Assembly: GCA_036172245.1 (NCBI GenBank) | Contig: JAYWIR010000046.1 | Location: 806,001 to 870,000 of the forward strand | Direction of reading: 5' to 3' | Source of the DNA: Raillietiella orientalis | Lineage: Eukaryota | Length of the DNA: 64,000 bases | In this document: positions 1,986 to 30,445 of the stretch, in pieces | How positions within the stretch are numbered: position 1 is the first letter of the stretch | How the letters are laid out: each line of letters opens with the position of its first letter | The notes under the pieces: generated by a model | The model's input: the letters and a program-made list of their open reading frames with translations, nothing else | Told to the model about the DNA's origin: nothing | Databases searched by the model: none | Program-made: the position numbers and the translations under genes

Positions 1986-3891
1986 TTCGAATATTTATCG
2001 GCAATATGACTAGTTTAGTACACTTTTAAAACGAGAATGAATTTTCGAAGACTGCTAACACGTTTCTATGGAAACAGCGTAAACAGTGTACACATGATGG
2101 AGGCTTCACCCGACATCCTATGAGCAGAGATCTTTGATAAATCTTTGTTTTCTGTTTCCTGTAATTTACTGCTAACAATATTATAGCTCAGTCAATTCAT
2201 CTGCAGGATAACCGATGCTGAAATCTCTGCAGTAATGGAATTCTATCAACTCGTAATTAAGATGCTTAATGGTGTTCCATGCTGAGCTTAGCTGTACTAC
2301 ATGAAGGTCAAATCAACGAACTTACTCAGGTCATGATTTAGCTCCAAATTAAAAAAATTACATATGCAATAGTTTCTAAACTAGAACGTGACAAAATTAT
2401 GCATCACTCATGGTTTCCTTTCCATATTCGTATGAACCTTAACAGAACTATGAACTAGTTGTGCAAACTGTACTTGAATATAGGAAAAAAGAAATAGCAT
2501 TCCCTTAACAAATGATTCATAATCGGAAGCAAATTATAAACAAATACCAAACATTGATTGTTTATTTTTTTCTTTTTTTAAATTGTGTCTTAGGTTCAAG
2601 TATGAGTTCAATATGTACTTCATGTACTTCAAGTATGGTCCTAAGCAAATGATAATTTCACATAGTTAAGAAATAACTGCCGAAGGAAAAGACATCAAGG
2701 TGAGCAAAGCATTCACACAAATATAGGGAAGGAAGCAAGAGAATCCAAAGCATTCTGTCTTGCAAGAGAATGGGCCGAGTAGCCTTATGCTGCACATACA
2801 CAATGTACCCAGATGATAAGCAATAGTAAAGGGCTTTTCACACATCTATTATCAAAAACAGGAAGCTGAAATGCAAGTGATCCGGACAATGAAGAAAAAT
2901 ATCCTAGGGACACACCATATAAAAATAATCCCAAAATGCAAGGAACTCTGTCACGAAGAACTCACAACGATAATTTGCCAAATGGCATCATCACATGCAT
3001 ACAATGGATAATAACAGGGTGGTCTACGAAAATAGAAGACGATAGTCAAACAATTGGTTTTAGGAGGAGATCCATCAGATGATCTCTCTGCAACTCCACT
3101 CTCAAAATAAAAGGACGATTTATCTACAGAAAAGGGAACTATGGAAATGGAGAAAAGTGGCCGGAAAGAACATCGAGACATTATTTGATTGACAAAACAT
3201 AAACGATGAAGCCTTGAGAAAATTGAAAGAACAACTTTGAACACAGAATGTATCTCTATCTAAAAGTGGAAGAACAAACTGCCTTCAATTTTTAGAGAAT
3301 TTATTTCTCTTGTACCATCCAGGTTTTACTATATCGACAAAGACTCGAGCACTGGTCTCAAAACAGAGCAGATCAGTATTGTCCCAAGTATGGAGAGACT
3401 GAGTTGCAGGTTCACACCTTTCATTGCAGCACTTTGACAGCTACTGGAAACAGGCGAGAAGTATCCCTAACAAGTGAAAGAAGAGACATATTAGGAGGAA
3501 TGTTAGGAGGACAAGGTATTACTCCGAAGGATAGAGGGTTAGTGACAATCTACATAGCACTCTTCATTTTTTTTTTTTTCTTCTGACTTCGCTCTTTTTC
3601 TTTCAGCTTTTTTTTTTTTTAAAAGGTTATCTTTTTTTTTGGTTCGCTAAGTACCTCAGAGCCGGTCGCGTGCCTCGCGACCCACGTGGCTCTTTTAAGC
3701 CACTGTTTTGTTTCCACGCCGCTCCCCTGCGACAACCCCGCAGGCAGGCGTGTAATTCTTCAGGATAGGAGTCACCCCGGGATGGGGGGGGAATCCGCTC
3801 TATGAATACAGGAAGGACTCGGAGTCCACTCCTCTCATGCTTGGGGAGGGATTCCCCCGGACGGGGGGGATCGCACCTCCAAGCCTGGTTG

Positions 3892-4090
3892 TCTCCGAAG
3901 GGGAACCCCGGAAGGAATCTCCTTCCTCATTCTCTCCGGAGGGACACCCCCTGGGAGTGGGGTGGTCCTCTCCATTTCAACTTCTCCGAAAGGAACCCGG
4001 AAAGGATCCACTTGTAGGAATTTCTTCTCCGGAAGAAACCCGAGGGAACCGCTCCTGTTCACTCCTCTGAAGAGAACCCCGAAGGGACGC
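3892..4090. repeat. About 5 degenerate subrepeats with 38-50 bp spacing, rDNA-spacer-like
   Basis: Units resembling TCTCCGRARRRAACCCG..GGA start at 3892, 3933, 3983, 4026 and ~4064. Confidence 0.6.
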
Positions 4091-4557
4091 TTCCGAAACT
4101 CAGAAAGGGCGCTGCAGCTTCCCGCAGGGAATCGCTCTCGCTTGCTTCATTGTGCACACTCTGTGAAGAGGCGACGACGCGGAGGGACCCCCAACAGGGG
4201 GGTCCGCTCCTTTGAACAACTGGAGAGGTACCCGTGAGGGCTCCTACTCCATCTTGAAACCGGAGGGGTCCCCTGTGGGGGGTCCGCTCTCCGTTGCACG
4301 ACAGGAGGGGGAACTCCCCATTCCTTGATTCCTAGGAGGACCCGAAGGTCGACTCCCATTGTTCCGGTCTTCATCGGGGGCCTCCGACTTAATCCACCGC
4401 CGGTGCCACGCCCGAATGTCTCGGCCAACCAGCGCCATTGCAGAAGAAACTCGGAACCCGACGACGCAGTGGCGTCAGAGTTTCTGCCGAAGTATTCGAA
4501 CCCGCGACGCATGGTGCCACACGCGGAAGCCTAAACCACAAGGCCTCCGACGCGGGC

Positions 4558-4801
4558 TTACAAATCCTCGACCAGAAGGGCTTAGCCTCAATAGATCGCA
4601 GTGTGGTGGCTGCTCTACTACGTACAACACCCCGGTCGGTACGTAAGTCGTCTACAGACGATTTGACACCTCCACGTTCGCCATACGGGATGCTCCATAC
4701 GATCCGGATTACGAAAACGCGCGCGTCCGCGGGCTGAGTCGCTTCGCGCGCTCTGCGCGCTGCCCGATGGGGGGCACACGGTGTTCACTTGCCGGGGCTT
4801 G
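4558..4801 (-). rRNA. 28S rRNA: 28S (LSU) rRNA 3'-terminal fragment, isolated and non-functional
   Basis: Minus strand reads AAATCGTCTGTAGACGACTTACGTACCGACCGGGGTGTTGTACGTAGTAGAGCAGCCACCACACTGCGATCTATTGAGGCTAAGCCCTTCTGGTCGAGGATTTGT, the conserved eukaryotic LSU 3' end. The upstream GC-rich part is presumably the last expansion segment. Confidence 0.9.
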
Positions 4802-5275
4802 ATAGCACTCTTCATAACAGCAAACTTAATAAGAAGGTGGAAGATCAAAATGGAAAATGCATGAAAAAGTGATGGAAGACTTATTGCAGAAAGAGACTCC
4901 TATCAACGGGTGTGGCAAAGTTCCTTCGGAAATACCCTAGTAATTACTGAGAAAAAGAATCAATTCCCAACACAGATTTTAAAAATGCAAACACTTTCTA
5001 ATGTAACGACAAATAGTGTAATCTGTATTGCATAACATGAAAAGTGGAACATAAAACAACTCTGATGTACATGCATTAGTGAAAAGCAAAGCATTTAAAG
5101 GAATGCAAAAGAACTGCTGTGGAAAGGGAAGAAACCCATGGTAAAAATGAAATATCCATGGAGACCCAGAGAACAGGGTAGTGTAAGAATGAAGACACTT
5201 GAGGAAGCCATACATGCCTTCCCGTATCTCCAAGATTCTCTAGGATTGATCCAAGAAGTAAGAAGAAGAAGAAGC

Positions 5276-6851
5276 GTTCCTTTTGGAGCCTTCTATCCAT
5301 CAGAAGCGTGGTCGGACTGCCTTCACAAGGCCGAGACTGTTCTGGGCCCGTTTCAAGGCGGCAGGTTCCTCCTGTCGGAACGGGCCTTCGTGTGGAACAT
5401 TTTCGTTGCCCCTCTCCTCCGTCCCCTCTTTTTTGTTTGTCCCCCTCCCTACTCGGCTAAGCGTCGGGCGCAACGCCTGTTGCGAAACGCCTTGTGGGTA
5501 CCGGCAAGGTCTAGGATACGCCTCAAGGACTTGGCGGCTCCTCGGCGGGATGCAGGATTGGGCATCCTGACGCTGGAGCGGATCGGACTGCTAGTGCAGT
5601 TCCGCATGCTGGCACTTTGCGCCCAGCTATGGACTACTCCCTGGTGTGCTCCAGCGCGGCTGCCGCTGCGGCGCTGCACGGGTGGCGACGGACTGCGTTC
5701 GTTGCACCTGCGCACGGAGTGCGCCCAGAGAGGATTCGGCTTCCCACTGAAGCAGCTCTCCTCGCTTCTGGGAAAGCATGCGTGGATCTCCTGCCGGCCG
5801 ACGAACTTCAACGCCTGGAGACAGGAAGCCTTATCGTCCTGGGCAGCGCAACAGGATGTGTCCCGTTTGGAACTCCGTTGCGTGAACCTTTCCCCATACT
5901 GTCCAGCGGGGAAGGTGCTTGAAGACCAGGACCAGTGGACACGCCTAGCCGCTACGCCCCTCGCCGAAGCACTGTCTGCATTGATGGTGCGAGACGACAG
6001 TGACCTGCCGGCGAGGTGGGAGGTCGCTTGCGAAATCCCAGGCGAAACCCGACTGCTGGGCGGCTGGAGGACTTGCGAGCTGGCAGACGCTGCCACGCCT
6101 CGCCTTCGTGCCAAGGGACTTTTCCGGTGGAGCGAGCTCCTCGGGGTGCCCACCGAAGAACTTGTGGTCCCTTCTGCGTGTTTGGACGCGACTGTGTTCC
6201 CCCTTCGGTGGAAACAGGACGCTTTTCTGCTGGTGCATTGGGGTTTGTACTGCAACCAGCGCGCGCACCTCGTTTCCGGGGGAGCTGCGTCCCCGAACTG
6301 TGCAACATGCGGAGCGGTGGAATCGCTTCCGCATTTGCTATTTGAATGCGGTGCCCTCCAGGAGCTGTGGCGGCGGCTGTCTTCAGCGCTCCTGCACCCC
6401 GGACACACCGCAAAGGACTGGATGCGCCGCTTCTTCACGCGTGGCGGTCTTTCTCTTGGAGCGGTTGTCGCAATCGTCTGCTGCGTCCGCGCCATTGTCA
6501 GGGCCCGCCAAGTATTGCAGATGCGAGTGATCCCAACATCGGTCCCCGACACTGCAGCCTGCAACCTGCAAATGGCTGCCGGGTGGCCACATCTTGGAGC
6601 GGAAGTGAGGACGGAGATCGGCGGCATTCACCGCCGGTTCTGAGAATAGGAACGGTTAGACTGCATACCCCTGTCCCCGCCCTCCCTCCCAGTTTATTTA
6701 TTTATTGTCCCCTACCCCCCCGTTCCGAATTCTCAGTGTGCCCTGCCTGCGTGCCAGGAACCCTCCTCCCCATCTTCTGTTCCCCTTACCTGGGAACACA
6801 GTTCCCAGAAGACATTATTAATAAACGTCCCGGCGCAACCGGGTAATAAAC
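5276..6851 (+). mobile_element. 5'-truncated L1/Tx1-like non-LTR retrotransposon (post-RT region, CCHC finger, 3' UTR, terminal hairpin)
   Basis: Open frame to 6643 with PRRDAGLG and CATCGAVESLPHLLFEC; clear homology to the copy at 23.3-24.6 kb; ends AATAAACGTCCCGGCGCAACCGGGTAATAAAC. Confidence 0.9.
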
Positions 6852-7968: not shown

Positions 7969-9318
7969 TTATATGTTGTAAACAAGTATGCTGGTCTTCT
8001 TACAATATGCCATGGCCAACTTAACACCACCAATTGAAGGAGAAGAGAAGGCTAGGCTATCCACCGATAAATATTCACCATACACGAAATGACTCCTGGA
8101 AAGCGACTGCTGAGAACTGCTTGTTCGCTGCACAAATTACCTCACGGAGTCCAGCAGACACGTAGCTATGCCCTTCCTTCGAAAAGCTGGATGGCACCAG
8201 ATTCTGCTTATACCACATTGCACCGAAATGGTCTGGGACGTATCACAATGATAAACACCTTGTGTGCCGGATTCCACCAATGGCCAGGCATGCTGAATGA
8301 ATTCGGCGAGCACCACACCCATTATCATTTTCTTTTTCGTAAACAGAAACGCCTGACAAGACAAAATTGCCACTGTTGCAAGCCCAACACTTACCTTATG
8401 CGGTTTACTCCACTGAATGTCAGGGGACCCTAATTCCTGATTAATGAATGAACACACCTTCTGTACTTTCTCCCAATGTTGTTTGGGATCGGACGGCAAA
8501 ATCAAAACAACCGCTCCTCCAAAATTTTCCCAAATGACACGTTTCCGACTATAATCCTGCACACACGGAATCCATATTGACGTCTGCACCTTCCTTGTAC
8601 TTACAGGAAAACTTAGATGGCCATGGCACTGTGCATGAAAATTTTCATGTTCCAGGCGATCGTTTGGGGAATCCTGGCAGTAGACCATCCCACAAGATGG
8701 GCATTCAGTTGCACCCAAGCGTCTCTGACCAGCATCAATAATGGTTTGCTTTAAAGATTCTTTCTTTTCTAGCTGTCTCCGTCTCCTGATGAAAAAGTCA
8801 CTCAATCTGTTTTGGTTACAGGATCATCACCTCTTCAGTTGAGGAAGCATAATCGGTTTCAAGACATGGATTTCAGGTTTGCTCTCCAAACATGATGCTT
8901 CCCAAGCTGGACGAACAGTCTTTATGCAGTGGACAATACGATCTGTCTGTTCCGTCGATTCAAGAATCCGCAAACTCTCATGTTTGTCTTTTGACTTGGA
9001 CTCACTTTGCTTCACGTTAGCACACGACCTGGGATGCAGCACAAAGTTTCCCGTATCAACACTTTTCGGCACTGCTTTTTGCACGCTAAAAACTACTTCG
9101 AATTTGCCACTAGAGTCGTGCTTGAAGAATTTGCGATTCTCTTTTCCTGGGTTTCTTTCTTTGCTCACACTGTATTTGGCAACCTGCTTGCATGCCTTTG
9201 GTTGGCTCACAGTTACGCAGCATCGTTGTGTGACTTGGGGTTTTGCAGTAAACTTTCGGACACTATGAGAAACACCCCTGTTGATCGTATCGTAGCTTCG
9301 CTTTCTCATATCCCGCAT
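7969..9318 (-). CDS. ESCO2: ESCO/Eco1 cohesin N-acetyltransferase, 5 exons (9318-8831, 8785-8605, 8556-8395, 8352-8141, 8095-7969)
   Basis: QTIIDAGQ motif, C2H2 finger CPSCGMVY...HENFH, acetyltransferase motif CGISRIWCHPAFRRKGIATCLLDSVR, C-terminal LAFSSPSIGG...ILVYN*. Four GT-AG introns of 45, 48, 42 and 45 nt. AATAAA at 7929-7924. ESCO1 versus ESCO2 orthology cannot be resolved. Confidence 0.9.
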
Positions 9319-9359: not shown

Positions 9360-12300
9360 CTATACAAGTCTCCCGATATATTTGGCATTCCGAGCCCTCC
9401 CAACCAAACTCGGCCATTGCACTAGAAATTCGTCCACCATATACTGAGCAATCCATCCCGACACCGACAGATGCTTCACTCTGCACACGCTCTCGCAAAA
9501 CACCATTTTCATTTTCCTGAGACACAGTACCTAGTCAAATGACATGCTCGCAAACGACTATCCCTGAAATTACCACTACTTACTTTCGCCAAGAAACACC
9601 ACAACAATACAGGAAGGCATGTACCAGGGCCATTGCATACAACCTGAAATCTGTTCTCTGTGTAGGGAAGTGCATATACTCACTAGATCAGGATTGGTGT
9701 CCAAAATCACAGGTAATGTATAAAAACATGCATACGCAAATGTGAAGATAGAAGTGAGCCAGGACTGCTTCACATGCCGACTTCGTGGAATCGAAACAAT
9801 TTCATACTGCAAGACATACGACTTGTACTTTGCAGGATATTTATGTCAAAAACAACAATTTGCACAATCCCGAAAACGAAAACGCTTCCTCTTGTTGACA
9901 GTACTTTACGTCCGTTATTGTCAAAAACAGAGCGCTACACACAAACTTATGATTCAATCGAATTCCATATAAGTGGCACCATGCAAGGACTCACATTCTT
10001 TTCACCGCTCTTCTCAAATGCCTTCACTTTTTCTTTGCTCAGACCATCGTCACTGGCAACCACATAAATTCGGGGACTGTAAGCTGTTTTATCAAGTGTG
10101 TCGAAAAGTTTCAACAGTTCTGCAGTGTGTCCACCTAATTGAAGACTCATCAAAGACTCACAAGTTTTCATGCACATTCACACTCAGTTCTGAATTCAAC
10201 TTTGCACGTTGTCAAGGAAAACGAAAAATCCCATTCAAACAATACGGCAAAACAGCGTGTAAGGTCTCCAGAATTCAGGCTCCGAAGGATTCCTACCACC
10301 TGGCTACTCCCAATCGAAAAACACGAACAAACAAAAGTTAACATCAGGTACCCCCACAATGTTTGGAACTCGGATTGAAAACCATGTACCATTAGAATAC
10401 AAGTGACCAGGCTGCTCACATGAGGGAACCTTACAAGCTCTGATGAAACACGCAATTGCTGAAACATGCAAGAACATAGGTGAGGTAGCTCTACTAACTG
10501 ACTGCAATTCACTGAAATACTTCTGTTATGTGCATTCACAAACAACCATTCACAAATACAGAAATCTCCAGACAGAGCCAGTTCTACTGACATTCAAATC
10601 CTTCCACTCAACCAAAACTAGGAGTGGACTTGCAGACAAGAAACTAAACCAATTTTCATTCTAGTCACCAGAACATGTACATCAGGTTAGCATAGTTTTC
10701 AGAATTCCTCAATTCCATATCCATTATCTCAGGATGCTCCTGTCTTCACACATGCATGAAATACATTCCCAGCAGCTACTGAGAAAATGTTACCCTATAT
10801 TGTACACTGTATCAATAGAATTCCAAAAATCCAGATTCGTCTGCTAAGTTTCTTGCTTACATCATGCACTTATTCTCACACATTAAGAGAAATTCGGAGA
10901 TTTCCTTGCCTTCCTCATTACCAATCAGTTAGGGCCTCTCCATTTTAAAGTTTTGCTTTGCTGTTGTGCTTGTTCATGTATGTGCAACACTGTCAACTCC
11001 AAACACATCAAAGGAATGCTATGTCGCATGGGTAGCATCAGGAAATAAATGTTAGAATAAGTCAATGCAGCAAAAAGGCTAGAAATAACAGGCTTCTAGA
11101 ATGCTTACTGGAGTTTCAAGCACACTCTAAGATGAACTTTTTATTCAATAACTCTGCACTTCTTCAGATAACACTGATAATTGTGCTGCAGAAATTAAAC
11201 ACCCAATAATGTCAAATATCATGACTCAAAAGAAAAGAGAATAAGGGAAATAAATGCAGTTCAAGACATAAAATAATTTCGTGCAAACCAGGAAATCAGT
11301 CGGAACTGAAACATCTTTCAACAGTCAGAATGGATAAATGCAGGGTTGAAAAACAAAAACAAATTCATAGCAATCAAACATGGACAAAATGGGTTCTTTG
11401 AAGTTCTTTTGCTTCCTCACTGTGGAAAAGCATGATGATACACTTATTGCATGATTGTCTTTTCTATTTGGTCTTCTGAATTCATGGTTCATGCATCCAA
11501 TTTTCTCCTTTCTGCTTTGTGCACGAAAAAACAAATTTCCTTTACTCATTTTTTAATTCGTGACCATATGTAGTGGTACTTATTTCCCAGGCAAATACTC
11601 TGCACATAGTAGTTTTCATTCTGCTTCTGCATACATATACCGTTTGAGGTTATTTTAAATATGCTTGTTCCTCATTTGCTTTACAGTCAGTTACTCAGAC
11701 AAGTTTATGAGAGTTCCTGGAGACTCTAAACAGGCACTTCCATGAGGAATTTCTTTTTTCGTACTCGTTTTGTTGTGCAGATGTGTGAATGTACAAGTTT
11801 ATTTGTCATCTTGGCTGCATGCCCTACATCATGGATTCTGGATAGTTCATTTGTGATAGTTTACAGTTTAACTCAAAACTAGTAAGTAAACTTTGTTTTT
11901 GTCCTCCAACAACTTAGTTCTTTTCTTTCTGTAATCCTATATTCGAAACACGAATGTTTCAGATGCACAAAGCAGAAAATGCAGAGCAACAGCGGTCATA
12001 CTGAGTAGGCTTTGCAGGAAAAATGAGGAGGGCAAATCACAGGATTTTACCAGTCGAAACTGCATTTTGATGGCAAAAACAAATCCTGTAAAGCATGGAT
12101 ATGCACATCAGGCACACTTGACGAATCATGAACTTTCAAATGCACAGAATACTTTAGAGATGCTATCTTTTTTTTTTTTGTTGAAAGGATCTTCTTTTAT
12201 GGGTGACAAAGTCACCAGAAAATGCTTTGGTAATGTAGGAAAACTTTGAAAGAAATCATGAGTTACCTGATCCTAAGACTGCTAATACCTTTATTCCCAT
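9360..12300 (-). CDS. ALG14: ALG14, UDP-GlcNAc transferase subunit, 5 exons (12300-12267, 10134-9995, 9806-9684, 9643-9584, 9530-9360)
   Basis: Spliced product MGIKVLAVLGS|GGHTAELL...PRIYVVASDD...IPRSRHVKQSWLTS...PDL|VVCNGPGTCLP...FCESVCRVKHLSVSG...FLVQWP...YIGRLV*. All introns GT-AG and phase-consistent. Confidence 0.92.
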
Positions 12301-12879
12301 TGACTTCAACACATGCAAAAGACAGTCTTCATGCCATCAAATCTAAAACATGAAAACAAAAGGTTACATTTGTTGTTAAAGTTTACAATTTCAGTTATAT
12401 TTCAATACATGCAAACAAGATCACACACTCAAGTATCCATATTTTATGCTGTGAGTCACTGAGTTGGTTCATTTACATCACTAATGAATGCATCTGATGA
12501 GAAGCCAAAATCATGAAATCTTTGAACAAAGTGAACTTCACTTATGTTCAATTACATATCAGTCTCTCCTTCCCTAAAATCATAGTTTCACAATATGTAT
12601 CAGTTACAGTCAAAAGCCAGTGTTGCAGCAGTCTTTGCATAAACAAAGAGAACTATAGAACTTTTATTCCTGAATGAAATAAGAAAAATTCACACCTTGT
12701 GTTTCCAAACAGAATAAGTTGTTGGAATGTCTGTCATGTATTTATGAAATCCTCATGAAATCATGAGAACAACCACTGAATACAATTACAATTTTCTACA
12801 AAGAACTCTCTAACAGAGAACAGAAGAGTTCTAAGCACACCTCAATATGGAAAAAATTGGAATTCCAAACAATGCATTT

Positions 12880-20380: not shown

Positions 20381-22783
20381 CTGATACAAACGTACGCAAG
20401 GCACATCTGATCGGTGGGAATTTCAACATCCGCCTGCTCTCAGGTGTTCCTTGCGGGCAAAAAGACTCGGCCAGCGAGTTGTGCGCTGCTATGAGCACGC
20501 GCAACTTGTTGGGGTACCTACCGGAAATGGTCCAAAGCGTCGACCACGTCTTCCTTGACACCGACTTGTGCCTACGGGTCGGCAGACGAGGGAAACTTCC
20601 GTCGACGCTATCGGACCATTTCCCGCTCATTTTCGAGGTTATGCCTCGCGACAAAGGACCACCATCCAGGGCGTGGCGTCTGCCCGGGGACTGGACGCGC
20701 ATCTCAGGTGCGGCGGAACATCTCTGCCAATTCCTGGGAGGCGTCATCCTCCGGAATCTCGACGACTGGGACCGCATGAAGGTCTCAGTCCGCGAGTTCT
20801 GCGAGGAGTTCCCTCTGCATCGCCTGCTCCGGGGATTTGGTGAGGGGGCCCACAACGAAAGAGCGTATTTGCACACCCGTCGTTACGCGAGGACCCCTGA
20901 CGTCCGTTGCTTGGCCGAGTACAAAGCCGGGGCCGAGCGTCAGGCCTGGCAAACCGGGCCGCCCAGCGTGCTGGACGACTTGGACCAGGAACACTCGGAC
21001 CCAGCATCGATACGTCGCCTCGTGCGGGGATTTTACTCCTCCCTTTACTCCAGGGCACCTGCGGAGTGGGACACCTCGCGGCGCTTGCTCCCAGATGGAG
21101 CCCCGGCAATAGGAGAGGAGGAGAAAGAAAGCCTCGACGGGCCTTTTACGACCGGTGAAATCATCACCACGATTAAAAGGCTCAAGAGGCGTAAGGCGCC
21201 AGGGGAGGACGGCCTGCCGGCAGAGTTCTTTCAGTGCTTCGCTGCAGAGCTGACCCCCCTGGTGCTCGAGTTGACACGGCTGATCCGAGACGAAGGCGAT
21301 GTTCCCGCCTCGTTCCGGTCAGCCAGGGTGAGGCTCCTTCCTAAGGGAGGAGACCTCAGGAGATTAAGCAACTGGCGTCCGATCACGATTGTGAACACGG
21401 ACGCCAAGTTGTTGGCTGGACTGTGGGCTGCGCGGCTGGGACAGGTAGCGGACAGCTTCGTCAGCCCGGAACAGACGTACGCTGCTCCCGGGCGAAGCAT
21501 GGAGGTCAACCTGTACCACTCTAACGCTACCACCTGGCTAGAGCTCCAACACGAAAGGGGCTTGGTGCTCAACCGGAATTCCGGTGAGTCCGTCAGCAAT
21601 GGGTAGGATGGTTGGGTGGGGGAGGGAGCCCTTGCGGTCGCAGTCAACTTGCACAAAGCATTCGACTGCGTCGACCAGAGGCTCCTGCTGGAGCTTCTGG
21701 AACGCTTGGGCTTCCCGGCCTCATTATTGGCCTATCTGCGCTCCAGCTGACGCGACACGCTCATCAACGTTTCTTCCAGCGGGCAGACCGTGCACGGCGT
21801 GCCGGCGCGGTGTGAGATACGGCAGGGAGACAGCCTGAGCCCCCTGCTCTTCAGTACCTACTTTGAGTTGGTACTGAGCGCGTACAGGGAAACTCTGGCG
21901 CACCTGCCGCACGACTGCGCCGGTACGCCTGCGGTTTCAGCGTACGCGGACGACCTTCTGCTGCTGCTCCCTATGTCCACCCCGGCTTCGGCGGTCGAGG
22001 AGTTCTTCGACCTGCTCAGTCGGGGAACAGGACTAAAGGTGAACAGGGCGAAGTCGTCCGTGATGCCAGTTGGTGCGGCGTGGGCAGGGCAGCAGGACTG
22101 GGCTGGGTCCGCTCAGGGATCCCCACGGTGAGGTACTTCAAGTACCTTGATGTGCCGTTGGTAGGCTATTCTCCTGAGGAAGCGTGGTCCCGCTGCCTCC
22201 AGACAGTAGAGACGGCAATCGGTCCGTTCCAAGGCGGCAGGTTTTTCCTGCCGGTACGGGCCACGGTTTGGAACAAGTTCGCGGCTTCTCTCCTCCGCCC
22301 CCTGCTTTTTGTTTGTCCCCCCACAGAGAGGATAAAAAAGCGGACGAAGGACCTCCTCCCCTTTGGGACAAAGGGAGTGCCCGAGTCCGCTTGAAGGACT
22401 TGTGCGCTCCGCGTCGGGACGGCGGTCTCGGCCTTCTAACGTTGAAGCGGCTGGAGCTTCACCTCCAGTTTAGAATGATGACCGTTGTGCCGGAGTTGTG
22501 GTACACCTGCTGGTGCGTCCCTGCACGCCTCCTCGTCATGCAAGCCATCGGGAAGACGGGACTCACGTCCTTTCTTGCACTCCATCGCAGTCGCATCAAC
22601 CGATGTGGGCTCCAGCTGCGGAGGGTAGCTGCCTTGACACGGAGAATCCCTGGATTGATTACCTGTCGCCCCGCGAACGGTAGTGCCTGGTTGCAGGAAA
22701 CCGTTCGCACGTGGGCACAGAGCGGCATGCAACGCGCCGTACAGGAACGACGGTTTCTCTTCGGGCTCTACAGAAGTTGCACG

Positions 22784-24860
22784 TCGCGGTCGATCTCCGC
22801 AAGGCGTTCGACTGCGTGAATCAGGATCTCCTCCTGGAGCTCCTGGAACGCCTCGGTCTCCCGGTGCACCTCGTGGCCTATTTGCGCGCTTGCTGGCGCC
22901 ACGCGCTGATTTCGATCTCTTTCAGCGGCTGCCACGTGTACGGCGTGCCGGTGCGGCGGGGCATCAGGCAGGGCGACAGCTTAAGCCCGTTGCTCTTCAG
23001 CATCTTCTTTGAGTTGGTGCTGAGGGCGTACAGGCTGACGCTGGCCAACCTGCCGAGCTCTTGTCCAGGAACGCCGTCCGTGGCGGCCTATGCCGACGAC
23101 CTGCTTCTCCTTTTACCCATGACCACTCTGGCGTCCAGTCTCTAGGATTTCTTCGAGCTGATTCGCCGGGGAGCGGGCATGAGCGTAAACCGGAGTAAAA
23201 GCTTGGTCGTTCCTATTGGTGCGGCGTGGGAGGGGCAGTCCGACTGGATCCGCCCGGGCATCCCGACCGCTTCGTCCTTCCAATACTTGGGCGTTCCGCT
23301 GGGGAACGTCAGTCCAGTGGAAGTGTGGTCGGACTGCCTTCGGAAGGCTACGAGTGCTCTGAGCCCGTTCCACCACGGCAGGTTCCTCCTGTCGGAGCGG
23401 GCCGCGGTATGGAACACCTTCGTTGCCCCCCTCTTGCGCCCCCTGATTTTTGTTTGTCCGCACCCCCACTCGGCCAAGCTTCAGGCGCACGCCTGTTGAG
23501 GAACGCTCTGTGGGGACCTGCGAGGTCCAGGATCCGCTTCAAAGACTTGGCGGCTCCGCGTCGGGATGCCGGCTTGGGCATCCTGACGCTGGAGAGAATC
23601 GAGCTGCAGGTGCAGCTTCGAATGTTGGCCCTGTGCGCCAACCAGGTCCACTCCGTGGTGTGCTCCCGCGCGCCTGCTCCTGCGGCGCTGCACCGGCAGC
23701 GATGGACTTCTGTCGCTCCGGCCGCATACGGAGCGCGCCACGAGAAGCTTCGGTTTCCCGTTGAAACCGCTTTACCGGCTCCCGGAAGCCCAGGAATGGA
23801 TCTCCTGCCGCCCAACGAACTTTGAATCCTGTCAGCAGGAGCCGTTGCATGCCTGGGCAAAGCACGAGGATGTTTCCCTTCTGGAACTCCGTTGCGCTCA
23901 CCTCTCCCCGTACTGCACGGTGGATGAGGTGTGCAACAGCCAGGAGAAGTGGACCCGCCTGGCCGTCACGCCCCTCGCCGACGCTCTGTCAGCCCTCAGG
24001 GCAAGAGATGACAGCGAGATGGGAGGTCGCCTGCACCATCGCAGAAGCAACACGACCCATAGGCTGCTGGAGGACTTGCGAGCTGGCAGACGCCGCCACG
24101 CCTCGCCACATCCCGAAGGGACTCCTTCGGTGTAGTGAACACTTGAGTGTGCCCCCCGAAGAACTTGTGATCCCTCCCTCGTGTCTGAACACTTCTGTGT
24201 TCCCTCTGAACTGGAAGCAGGACGTCATCATGCTGGTGCATTGGGGTTTTCACTCCAACCAGCGGACGAACCGTGTTTCCGGGGGAGTTGTCTCCCCGAA
24301 CTGTAAGCGGTGCGGGGAAGTGGAAACGCTCCCGCACCTGTGGTGCCCTCCTAGAACTGAGGCGGAGGCTGGCCTCAACCCTCCTGCACCAGGGGGACAC
24401 CGCGAGAGACTGGGACACCGCTTCTTCACGCCAGGTGGCCTATCTTTAGGTGCTGTCGTTGCAACCGTGTGTTGCACCCGCGCCATCGACAAGGCCCACC
24501 GAGAGTTGGAGAAGCTGGCCATCCTTCGTCAGCCCACCGGATTAGCCAGCGCGAACATGGCGGCGGCGGCCGAGTGGGCCCATCTTCCAGAGGGCGTTAG
24601 GAGAGAGATCGCCGGCATCCATCGCCGGTTCTGAAAGGAAGAAACAACCTTACCAAAGACCCCTGTCCCCTGCACTCCATATCTTTATTTTTATTTTTTA
24701 TACTAGTGTATTTGTGGTCCCCTCTCTCCCATTCCGGACTTTCCGTATACCGACCTGCGTGTCGGGGATCCCACCCCCTTCGTCTCTTCTGTATCCTTTG
24801 TCCGGGAACTCTGTTCCTGGATAGTTAAGAAATGAACGCCCCGGCGCACCCGGGTGATAA
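22784..24860 (+). mobile_element. 5'-truncated Tx1-like copy nested in ORF2, with a 14-bp target-site duplication
   Basis: Starts at AVDLRKAFD and ends AATGAACGCCCCGGCGCACCCGGGTGATAA; flanked by ACAGAAGTTGCACG at 22770-22783 and 24861-24874. Confidence 0.92.
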
Positions 24861-25834
24861 ACAGAAGTTGCACGCTCGGAGAGATCCTGGAGGATCCGAA
24901 GAAGAGAGCGTGGTCAGGAAGAATCCCTCTCGCTGCTGCGCTGGCCTCCCTAATGGAAGATCTGGACAGCGATGTTGCGGCGAAGTGGGAGGTTACTGTT
25001 ACTATCTCCGGGAAGGAGAAGAAGATAGGAGAATGGAAGACGGGCCAGCTAACAGACGCTGCGACTCCGATTACGCCTCCCCATGCACTTCTGCTCTGGG
25101 TCGCGCTGCTCGATGTTCCGATTGAACATCTGAAGTGGCCCCCGGTGCTCATGAACACTTCCATCCTCCCCTTAAAATGGCAGGAGTCGGCTCTACTGTT
25201 GCAGCACTGGGAACTCCTCTGCAACGCCCGCCGACACCACTGGACCTGGGGAGCTGTGAACCCCAATTGTATTAGGTGTGGGGAACGGGAGTCCTTCCCC
25301 CAGATACTTGTGGATTGTGTTGCCCTCCGGCCCCTTTGGCTACGCTTTGCCGCGGCCATCGGAATCCCCTGCGGCAACCCCAGTGACGCTTTAAAAGTCC
25401 TCTTCGTTGCCGACGCCCTTCGGCCTGCGGCGTCGTTAGCAGCCCTGTGGGATCGTCGCCGCTTGGAGCAAGGCTACGGGAGGACCTCGAGAAAAGGGTG
25501 CCATCCAGCACTCCTTCGAATTTTTGAAGAGTCTCGATGGCCCCACCTGGATCCAAGAATACAGAAAGAGCTTGTCGGCATCCTGCAAGGGATGCAACGG
25601 CCCCAGCAGCAACAGTGATCCCTTTCCGTACTCTCCCACCTTTTCTTTTCTTTTTGTTTAGTTTTTTGTTTATCCCCCTTCCCCCTGCTGCCGTGGTGGA
25701 CCGTACCGGTCTGCGTACCGGTGACCCGGCAGGTTCTGTGTTTCTTCGTGCGTGGCTGGAGCACTGGTCCATCCACAGCACGTCTTTGTTAAAATTTGTT
25801 AATAATAAACGCCCCGGCGATAAACCCGGGTGAA

Positions 25835-30079: not shown

Positions 30080-30445
30080 CAGGCAACATGGGTCATACTG
30101 AACGGGTCGTGCAGGGAAAATGAGGAAAGCAAATCACTGTCCTGGGATTTTACCAGTCGAAACGTGCTTTTTTGATCGCAAAAGCACATTCTGGAATACG
30201 GATATGCATGCACATCAGGCACACCTGACGGATCATTCGCTTTCAACTGTGCGGCATACTTTGGAGATGCAAATGTTTTTTTTTTTTTGAAACTATCTTC
30301 TTCTTTTCAGAAAAGTCATTAGAAAATGCTTTGGTAACGAAGGCAAACTTCAAAAGAAATCATGAGTTACCTGATCCTAAGACTGCTAATACGATTATTC
30401 GCATTCTGTTCAACACATGCTCTTGCTATGAAATAATCTAAAACA
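30080..30445. repeat. Diverged direct duplicate of ~11980-12350 (ALG14 exon 1 plus proximal intron 1)
   Basis: Colinear similarity by eye, including an identical core AAAGAAATCATGAGTTACCTGATCCTAAGACTGCTAATAC and a shared ATCTAAAACA (acceptor on minus). Confidence 0.9.
30371..30404 (-). CDS. ALG14: Second ALG14 first coding exon (MRIIVLAVLGS|G)
   Basis: 34 nt with intact ATG and the same phase-1 GTAACT donor as the 12.3-kb copy; no other ALG14 exons were found next to it. Confidence 0.7.

What the first reader, a model, noticed from the sequence alone, without database searches (positions are those of the whole stretch)
3554..4815. 28S-3'-end-headed retroposon with spacer-like body, A-tail and perfect 14-bp TSD
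Seen: about 240 nt of terminal 28S rRNA continue into ~1 kb of GC-rich, subrepeat-containing sequence and an A-rich tail, all flanked by ATAGCACTCTTCAT twice. Known: a TSD plus 3' A-tail indicates target-primed reverse transcription by a LINE, and 28S-derived SINEs (SINE28) are rare. Inference: this is either a retrocopy of an unprocessed Pol I transcript running ~1 kb past the 28S end, or a member of a new rRNA-derived SINE family. The TSD length equals that of the nested Tx1-like copy at 22.8-24.9 kb.
Basis: partly seen in the sequence, partly recalled or inferred. Interest (0 to 1): 0.8.

Follow-up and report, generated by a model that had tools for sequence, protein, structure and literature searches.

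The report
28S rRNA–SINE chimeric retrocopy
A reverse transcriptase copying a common jumping element apparently hopped onto the end of a ribosomal RNA and pasted both into the genome in one step, a known kind of accident; other ribosomal RNA copies in this genome often begin right after a known methylated base, as if the enzyme had stalled on it.

Summary
Between perfect 14-bp TSDs lie, on the minus strand, the last 242 nt of 28S rRNA, two extra A's, and nt 1-998 of a ~1.06-kb tRNA-headed SINE. The SINE has at least 511 intact 5' ends in this genome. The body is unrelated to the 3' ETS, and the 28S-SINE junction occurs once. So this is neither a pre-rRNA read-through copy nor a 28S-headed SINE family, but a one-off chimera. 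It most likely arose when a LINE reverse transcriptase jumped from the SINE 5' end to the mature 28S 3' end. A second chimera of the same anatomy (1.1 kb of 18S + the same SINE, 14-bp TSD) lies on contig C23. Such chimeras are a known class (U6/L1, U6/SINE, 28S/L1). A side result is newer: 9 of 38 28S-fragment loci start exactly one base 3' of the m3U site of the peptidyl-transferase centre, where reverse transcriptase is known to stop. These copies look like independent rRNA retrocopies, a possible fossil footprint of an rRNA methylation. No reads spanning the junctions were available.

The parts
3554..3567 (.). TSD copy at the element's 3' end (14 bp)
3568..3640 (-). SINE internal A-rich tract (about consensus nt 929-998) ending in 12 A; the copy is 3'-truncated here and lacks the terminal hairpin and TTTT
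3568..4557 (-). tRNA-headed SINE body, nt 1-998 of a ~1,066-nt family consensus, 91.9% identical to it; GC-rich hairpin subrepeats
4492..4502 (-). Pol III B-box (1 mismatch to the recalled consensus); the family motif is kept in 113 of 128 copies
4536..4546 (-). A-box-like motif of the tRNA-like head; the family motif is kept in 123 of 128 copies
4558..4559 (-). 2-nt AA linker; not rDNA (which continues CC) and not SINE: untemplated or the remnant of an oligo(A) on the rRNA
4560..4801 (-). last 242 nt of 28S rRNA, ending exactly at the mature 3' end, 5'-truncated; no B-box found in it
4802..4815 (.). TSD copy at the element's 5' end (14 bp)
2884..5085 (.). old dispersed repeat that hosts the insertion; paralogues lack the insertion

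Best explanation
A single chimeric retro-insertion. A LINE endonuclease nicked the target. Reverse transcription was primed on an internal A-tract of a Pol III transcript of the tRNA-headed SINE and ran to SINE nt 1. The enzyme then jumped end-to-end onto the 3' terminus of mature (perhaps oligoadenylated) 28S rRNA, copied 242 nt and stopped; second-strand completion left a 14-bp TSD. Shown: the anatomy, the family, the single junction, the empty site in paralogues, and a second chimera with 18S. Inferred: template jump rather than RNA ligation, Pol III transcription, and which LINE did it. The copy is most likely dead on arrival: it has not multiplied.
For: One outer TSD encloses both parts and there is no inner TSD at the SINE. 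The junction joins the exact 28S 3' end to exact SINE nt 1 with 2 extra nt. 511 SINE 5'-end matches, 0 for the reversed control. Of 128 copies examined, only this one has sense-strand 28S directly upstream. Of 36 junction-pattern matches the window is one of 3 exact ones, and it is the only one of the 30 fetched 28S-end loci in which the SINE 5' end directly follows the 28S end. Head like tRNA-Arg/Glu/Gly with A- and B-boxes. The only TTTT in the consensus is at its 3' end; 11 of 300 dinucleotide shuffles of nt 1-928 lack TTTT. 3' truncation is common: 38 of 128 copies reach nt 1050, 48 end at nt 900-1049. A second chimera came up in an independent 18S search: about 1.1 kb of 18S (96.6%) + 3 nt + SINE nt 1-941, TSD 13/14. 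Many dispersed 28S copies end at the mature 3' end with A-rich tails, so rRNA is a frequent template here.
Against: No reads or contigs spanning either junction were available. ARAGORN (0 of 22 loci) and Rfam (15 loci) do not call the head a tRNA; the likeness rests on pairwise scores of 33-36 against shuffled maxima of 25-32 and on box motifs. 71 of 128 copies gave no detectable TSD. No partner LINE was identified. Only 128 of at least 511 copies were inspected upstream, so further heads may exist. Template jump and RNA ligation leave similar products.
Confidence: 0.85

Rival explanations
1. RNA-level ligation (RtcB-like) of a 28S 3' end to SINE RNA before reverse transcription; same product, different step.
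For: Same-orientation chimeras can form by ligation or by template switching (bioRxiv 10.1101/2025.02.02.635956, passages).
Against: Both chimeras join at SINE nt 1 with 2-3 extra nt. A Pol III 5' triphosphate is a poor RtcB acceptor, and added nucleotides fit end-to-end jumping (both points recalled, not tested).
Confidence: 0.07
2. Two sequential insertions: the SINE landed in the short A tail of an older 28S retrocopy.
For: 28S retrocopies with A-rich tails exist in this genome, and SINE targets are often A-rich.
Against: An inner TSD could be at most 2 nt, against 9-20 bp in the family. The same holds for the C23 18S chimera. The two parts look similarly young.
Confidence: 0.05
3. Retrocopy of an unprocessed Pol I transcript running past the 28S end.
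For: The 28S end and the body are contiguous and co-oriented. The assembly holds only fragments of rDNA, so a variant unit cannot be excluded.
Against: The sequence after 28S in three rDNA-like copies is mutually homologous and unrelated to the body. The body is a dispersed family with its own 5' end.
Confidence: 0.015
4. Member of a 28S-headed SINE family (SINE28-like; first reader).
For: Heads are known to be added to SINEs in the course of evolution (PMC4494074, passages).
Against: One junction in the genome. No B-box in the 28S piece. The dispersed 28S copies do not group as one family.
Confidence: 0.015

Closest known systems
Chimeric retrotranscripts by template switching: U6/L1, U6/Alu, U6/AnolisSINE2 (PMC4476161, passages)
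   Same: Cellular RNA at the 5' side, non-LTR element at the 3' side, same orientation, one TSD; SINEs are known as the 3' partner.
   Different: The 5' partner here is rRNA (the 28S 3' end; an 18S fragment on C23) and is itself 5'-truncated. The SINE is complete at its 5' end and truncated at its 3' end.
28S rRNA/LINE-1 chimeras in primates (bioRxiv 10.1101/2025.02.02.635956, passages; n = 18, median 269 nt, 83% sense)
   Same: A 28S fragment of similar size in sense orientation at the 5' side of a retro-insertion.
   Different: The partner there is LINE-1 and the fragments often start near nt 3636; here the partner is a tRNA-SINE and the fragment ends at the mature 3' end.
SINE28 (PMC4994717; parts 1-2 of the text, passages, supplement 2 part 1)
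   Same: 28S 3'-terminal piece and TSD. The genome's free 28S 3' copies with A-rich tails look like SINE28.
   Different: SINE28 is 28S plus a simple tail, under 700 bp; here 1 kb of another SINE follows. The free copies behave like independent rRNA retrocopies, not like one family.
tRNA-derived SINEs (SINE2)
   Same: The body has a tRNA-like head with A/B boxes, a fixed 5' end, TTTT plus an A tail, TSDs and hundreds of copies.
   Different: Long (~1.06 kb), rich in GC hairpin subrepeats, mostly 3'-truncated; no partner-LINE tail found. It was not compared with SINE databases.

Membership tests
SINE28 / 28S-headed SINE family | 28S 3'-end head | tested here: met
SINE28 / 28S-headed SINE family | several dispersed copies of the same head-body unit | tested here: not met
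   one junction
SINE28 / 28S-headed SINE family | simple-repeat tail directly after 28S, length under 700 bp | tested here: not met
   990 nt of SINE follow the 28S end
SINE28 / 28S-headed SINE family | Pol III transcription from the 28S piece | not testable with these tools
   no B-box-like motif in the 242 nt; transcription itself was not tested
Pre-rRNA (28S + 3' ETS) retrocopy | body colinear with the 3' ETS/IGS | tested here: not met
Chimeric retrotranscript (RNA/non-LTR element) | two unrelated RNA copies fused in the same orientation inside one TSD | tested here: met
Chimeric retrotranscript (RNA/non-LTR element) | both parts arrived in one event (empty site known) | tested here: inconclusive
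   empty site seen in paralogues of the host repeat only; no orthologue or allele available
Chimeric retrotranscript (RNA/non-LTR element) | formed by template switch rather than ligation | not testable with these tools
   junction features only
tRNA-derived SINE (body) | tRNA-related head with A and B boxes | tested here: met
   not called as a tRNA by ARAGORN or Rfam, as expected of a diverged head
tRNA-derived SINE (body) | many dispersed copies, common 5' end, differing TSDs | tested here: met
   511 5'-end matches; 49 of 128 copies with an adjacent TSD
tRNA-derived SINE (body) | 3' tail shared with a partner LINE | tested here: inconclusive
   no match in the window or the fetched loci; the genome's LINEs were not surveyed
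Tx1 clade (LINE at 22.8-24.9 kb) | RT phylogeny in the Tx1 clade | not tested
   only RVT_1 E 8e-14 and similar scores to R2 and L1 structures

The most novel reading that the evidence does not exclude
Dispersed rRNA retrocopies keep a fossil record of an rRNA base modification. The LINE reverse transcriptase stalls at m3U of the 28S peptidyl-transferase centre, so copies start exactly one base downstream of it: 9 of 38 loci, 8 with unrelated flanks, 78-94.5% identical to the reference copy and so formed repeatedly over time. SINE28-like copies would then be retrocopies of mature, modified rRNA rather than Pol III SINEs. In this genome rRNA would also be a recurrent jump target for SINE cDNA, the raw step of SINE head-swapping.
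Probability: 0.72. Interest if true: 0.65.

Novelty: new variant of a known kind. Interest (0 to 1): 0.48.

Why it matters
The window element is a clean, young snapshot of how SINEs are thought to gain new heads, seen twice (28S and 18S) with one SINE family, but it is a dead-end copy of a known class. The side result matters more. If retrocopy 5' ends mark RT-blocking bases, genome assemblies alone could show the presence and age of an rRNA modification in organisms that were never assayed. The SINE28 concept would also become testable: 5' ends piled at m3U+1 point to mature rRNA templates.

Tried and rejected
Rfam at gathering score over the whole window: 0 hits; the 28S piece appeared only in the focused search. 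Public runs: one run listed, holding 0.06 of the words; its contigs covered the SINE body but not the junctions or the 28S head, so it is uninformative. Further chimeras among 128 SINE copies: 8 had a distant TSD-like match, 2 of them the rRNA chimeras. L077 was rejected because its 396-nt upstream piece is colinear with an old host repeat. L011 and L066 have only 16-20 extra nt. L086 was viewed at its ends only and showed nothing convincing; L241 and L260 were not examined further. L192 (antisense 28S next to a SINE) was read as two insertions, 95% against 79% identity and no joint TSD. L270 is an unrelated distant fragment. The shared 28S start as a sarcin-ricin-loop cleavage product: rejected, that motif lies about 70 nt downstream. 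As a single SINE28 master family: disfavoured by the tree. 18S fragments (11 rows) show no pile-up after the m1acp3-pseudouridine site, and the C23 piece reads through it. An HDV-like ribozyme at the SINE 5' end was considered from the fold and dropped by eye; no Rfam ribozyme hit. Literature searches for a link between retrocopy 5' ends and m3U (listings only) showed no such paper. The library lacks most subscription papers, and bioRxiv supplements were closed, which bears on the 28S/LINE-1 start positions.

Full report
Observation. The window is G000:C46:806001-870000 of a 210-Mb genome in 491 contigs. ATAGCACTCTTCAT stands at 3554-3567 and 4802-4815. On the minus strand, 4801->4560 is the 3'-terminal 242 nt of 28S rRNA: Rfam LSU_rRNA_eukarya matches to its last position (E 5.9e-14). 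The piece is 93.9% identical to the best 28S-like copy, with 3 mismatches in the last 175 nt. Two A's follow, then 990 nt of body (4557->3568). The host is an old repeat. Five paralogues align across the site when the two flanks are joined, L167 most cleanly. This argues against an assembly artefact, but no spanning reads could be had.

The body is not spacer. Three rDNA-like copies continue after the 28S end with mutually homologous sequence (72-87%), taken as the 3' ETS. It has no significant similarity to the body (best E 0.056). The body is a high-copy family: 3,466 first-look candidates, 40 scored, the long matches 85-92% identical. A 28-nt 5'-end pattern gives 511 matches against 0 for the control; a 3'-tail pattern gives 102. 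The consensus of 57 copies is about 1,066 nt. Its head aligns best with the genome's tRNA-Arg(CCT), Gly and Glu among 30 tRNA loci, with A- and B-box motifs at tRNA spacing (box consensus recalled). ARAGORN (22 loci) and Rfam (15 loci) do not call it a tRNA. The only TTTT is at the 3' end after a hairpin; 11 of 300 shuffles lack TTTT. Of 128 distinct copies examined, 49 have an adjacent TSD of 9-20 bp, 71 have none detected and 8 have a distant match; 38 reach the 3' end and 48 stop in or near the internal A-tracts. The window copy stops at consensus nt 998. So the body is a long tRNA-headed SINE; Pol III transcription is inferred.

The 28S head is unique to this copy. None of the 29 other top copies carries it. 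Among the 30 fetched loci of the 39 matches to the 28S end, only the window has the SINE 5' end directly behind it. A junction pattern gave 36 loose matches, with the window among the 3 exact ones. Among 128 upstream flanks, sense 28S abuts the SINE once. An independent 18S search exposed a second chimera on C23: TSD, about 1.1 kb of 18S ending internally at nt 1257, 3 extra nt, SINE nt 1-941 ending in the A-tract, TSD (13/14). Two in 128 is not an unbiased rate, since both were reached through rRNA.

Mechanism. One outer TSD, no inner TSD, a join at exact SINE nt 1, and 2-3 extra nt in both chimeras fit target-primed reverse transcription of SINE RNA followed by an end-to-end jump to an rRNA 3' end. 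The anatomy is shown; the jump is inferred. Ligation and sequential insertion are the weaker rivals. The LINE responsible is unknown. The copy at 22770-24874 has a 14-bp TSD and an RT fragment, but it shares no tail with the SINE and its clade was not resolved.

Known relatives. Template-switch chimeras with SINE partners (U6/Alu, U6/AnolisSINE2) are described in PMC4476161 (passages). 28S/LINE-1 chimeras are described in bioRxiv 10.1101/2025.02.02.635956 (passages; supplements closed). Addition of RNA heads to SINEs is described in PMC4494074 (passages). SINE28 (PMC4994717; text parts 1-2, passages, supplement 2 part 1) is 28S plus a simple tail; this element fails that test. The listings showed no 28S or 18S/tRNA-SINE chimera by title or abstract start; only the papers named were opened.

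Side result. Searching with the last 1,161 nt of a 28S copy showed many dispersed fragments with one start. Among 38 distinct loci aligned over that region, 18 extend upstream, 9 start exactly at position 635, 5 start at 634-648 otherwise and 6 start at 652-712. In the 9, identity is 13-20 of 20 downstream and 3-6 of 20 upstream, so the boundary is real. Position 635 is the second U of GGG-UUU-AG. [quoted passage not shown] With a hand-entered list of 29 starts (8 at 635) and a uniform null over 538 positions, P is about 3e-13. Upstream flanks are unrelated except L039/L055, and identities range from 78 to 94.5%. On a 34-row tree (L206 dropped as too short) the 14 copies starting at 634-648 need 11 changes, against 9.6 for shuffled labels; well-supported branches alone do not rule out one origin. 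A SPOUT1-family gene is present (best structure match human C9orf114, E 2e-45).

Against the side result. m3U was not measured in this organism, and that it is an animal is my inference from its tRNA sequences (recalled comparison). A natural RNA break at that exposed site would give the same pattern. 18 loci run through the site (two of them rDNA-like copies with 3' ETS). 18S fragments show no matching peak, and one reads through its blocking base. L039/L055 leave room for an insertion at that site. The human starts at 4501 may be a single duplicated event. Four searches (listings only) found no paper making this link.

Verdict. The rRNA/tRNA-SINE pairing, seen twice, is a modest new variant. 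The m3U footprint is the part worth a specialist's time. Interest 0.48.

Noticed in passing
G000:C23 about 25.7-27.8 kb (L233, L221): Second rRNA/SINE chimera: 18S nt ~164-1257 (96.6%) + 3 nt + SINE nt 1-941, inside a 14-bp TSD with 1 mismatch.
   Followed up: yes
L036, L039, L040, L041, L046, L048, L055, L198, L202 (and near misses L050, L044, L045, L200): 28S fragments begin at the second U of GGG-UUU-AG, one base 3' of the m3U site; upstream identity drops to 3-6 of 20. A SPOUT1-family gene is present on C3.
   Followed up: yes
L039 (C6) and L055 (C1): Both carry the same ~170-nt piece (71% alike, weak match to an internal LINE ORF stretch at window 21307-21386) directly before the m3U+1 start. 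L039 has further 28S upstream with 7 overlapping nt; the outer flanks differ. Either a jump at the block that was later re-copied, or an insertion at that site.
   Followed up: partly
PMC4994717 Table 1B and Table S1: Six human LSU fragments start at 4501 (all in the segmental-duplicate group, so perhaps one event) and one at 4500; human m3U is U4500. Seven others start at 3635-3639, unexplained. That the two numberings agree is my assumption.
   Followed up: partly
L009:2500-2545 and 1440-1485: The flanks of this SINE copy are inverted repeats of each other, as if it sat inside a small DNA transposon.
   Followed up: no
L172:1700-1807 (C158): A U6-like copy (Rfam 54 bits) lies 4.4 kb upstream of a partial 28S gene.
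   Followed up: no
window 5099-6846, 17.5-26.4 kb: Several nested copies of one LINE family share a short 3'-end motif at 6820, 17543, 24831 and 25804; the copy at 22770-24874 has an RT fragment and a 14-bp TSD with no poly(A).
   Followed up: partly
window 8137-8823 (-): Exon of an ESCO1/2-type acetyltransferase gene.
   Followed up: no
window 12101-12316 and 30208-30420: Two copies of another short repeat with an internal T-run, 81-88% alike.
   Followed up: no
G000:C360, C158, C72: rDNA is only fragmentarily assembled (a full 18S on a short contig, partial 28S copies), so identities to '28S' are to these copies.
   Followed up: partly
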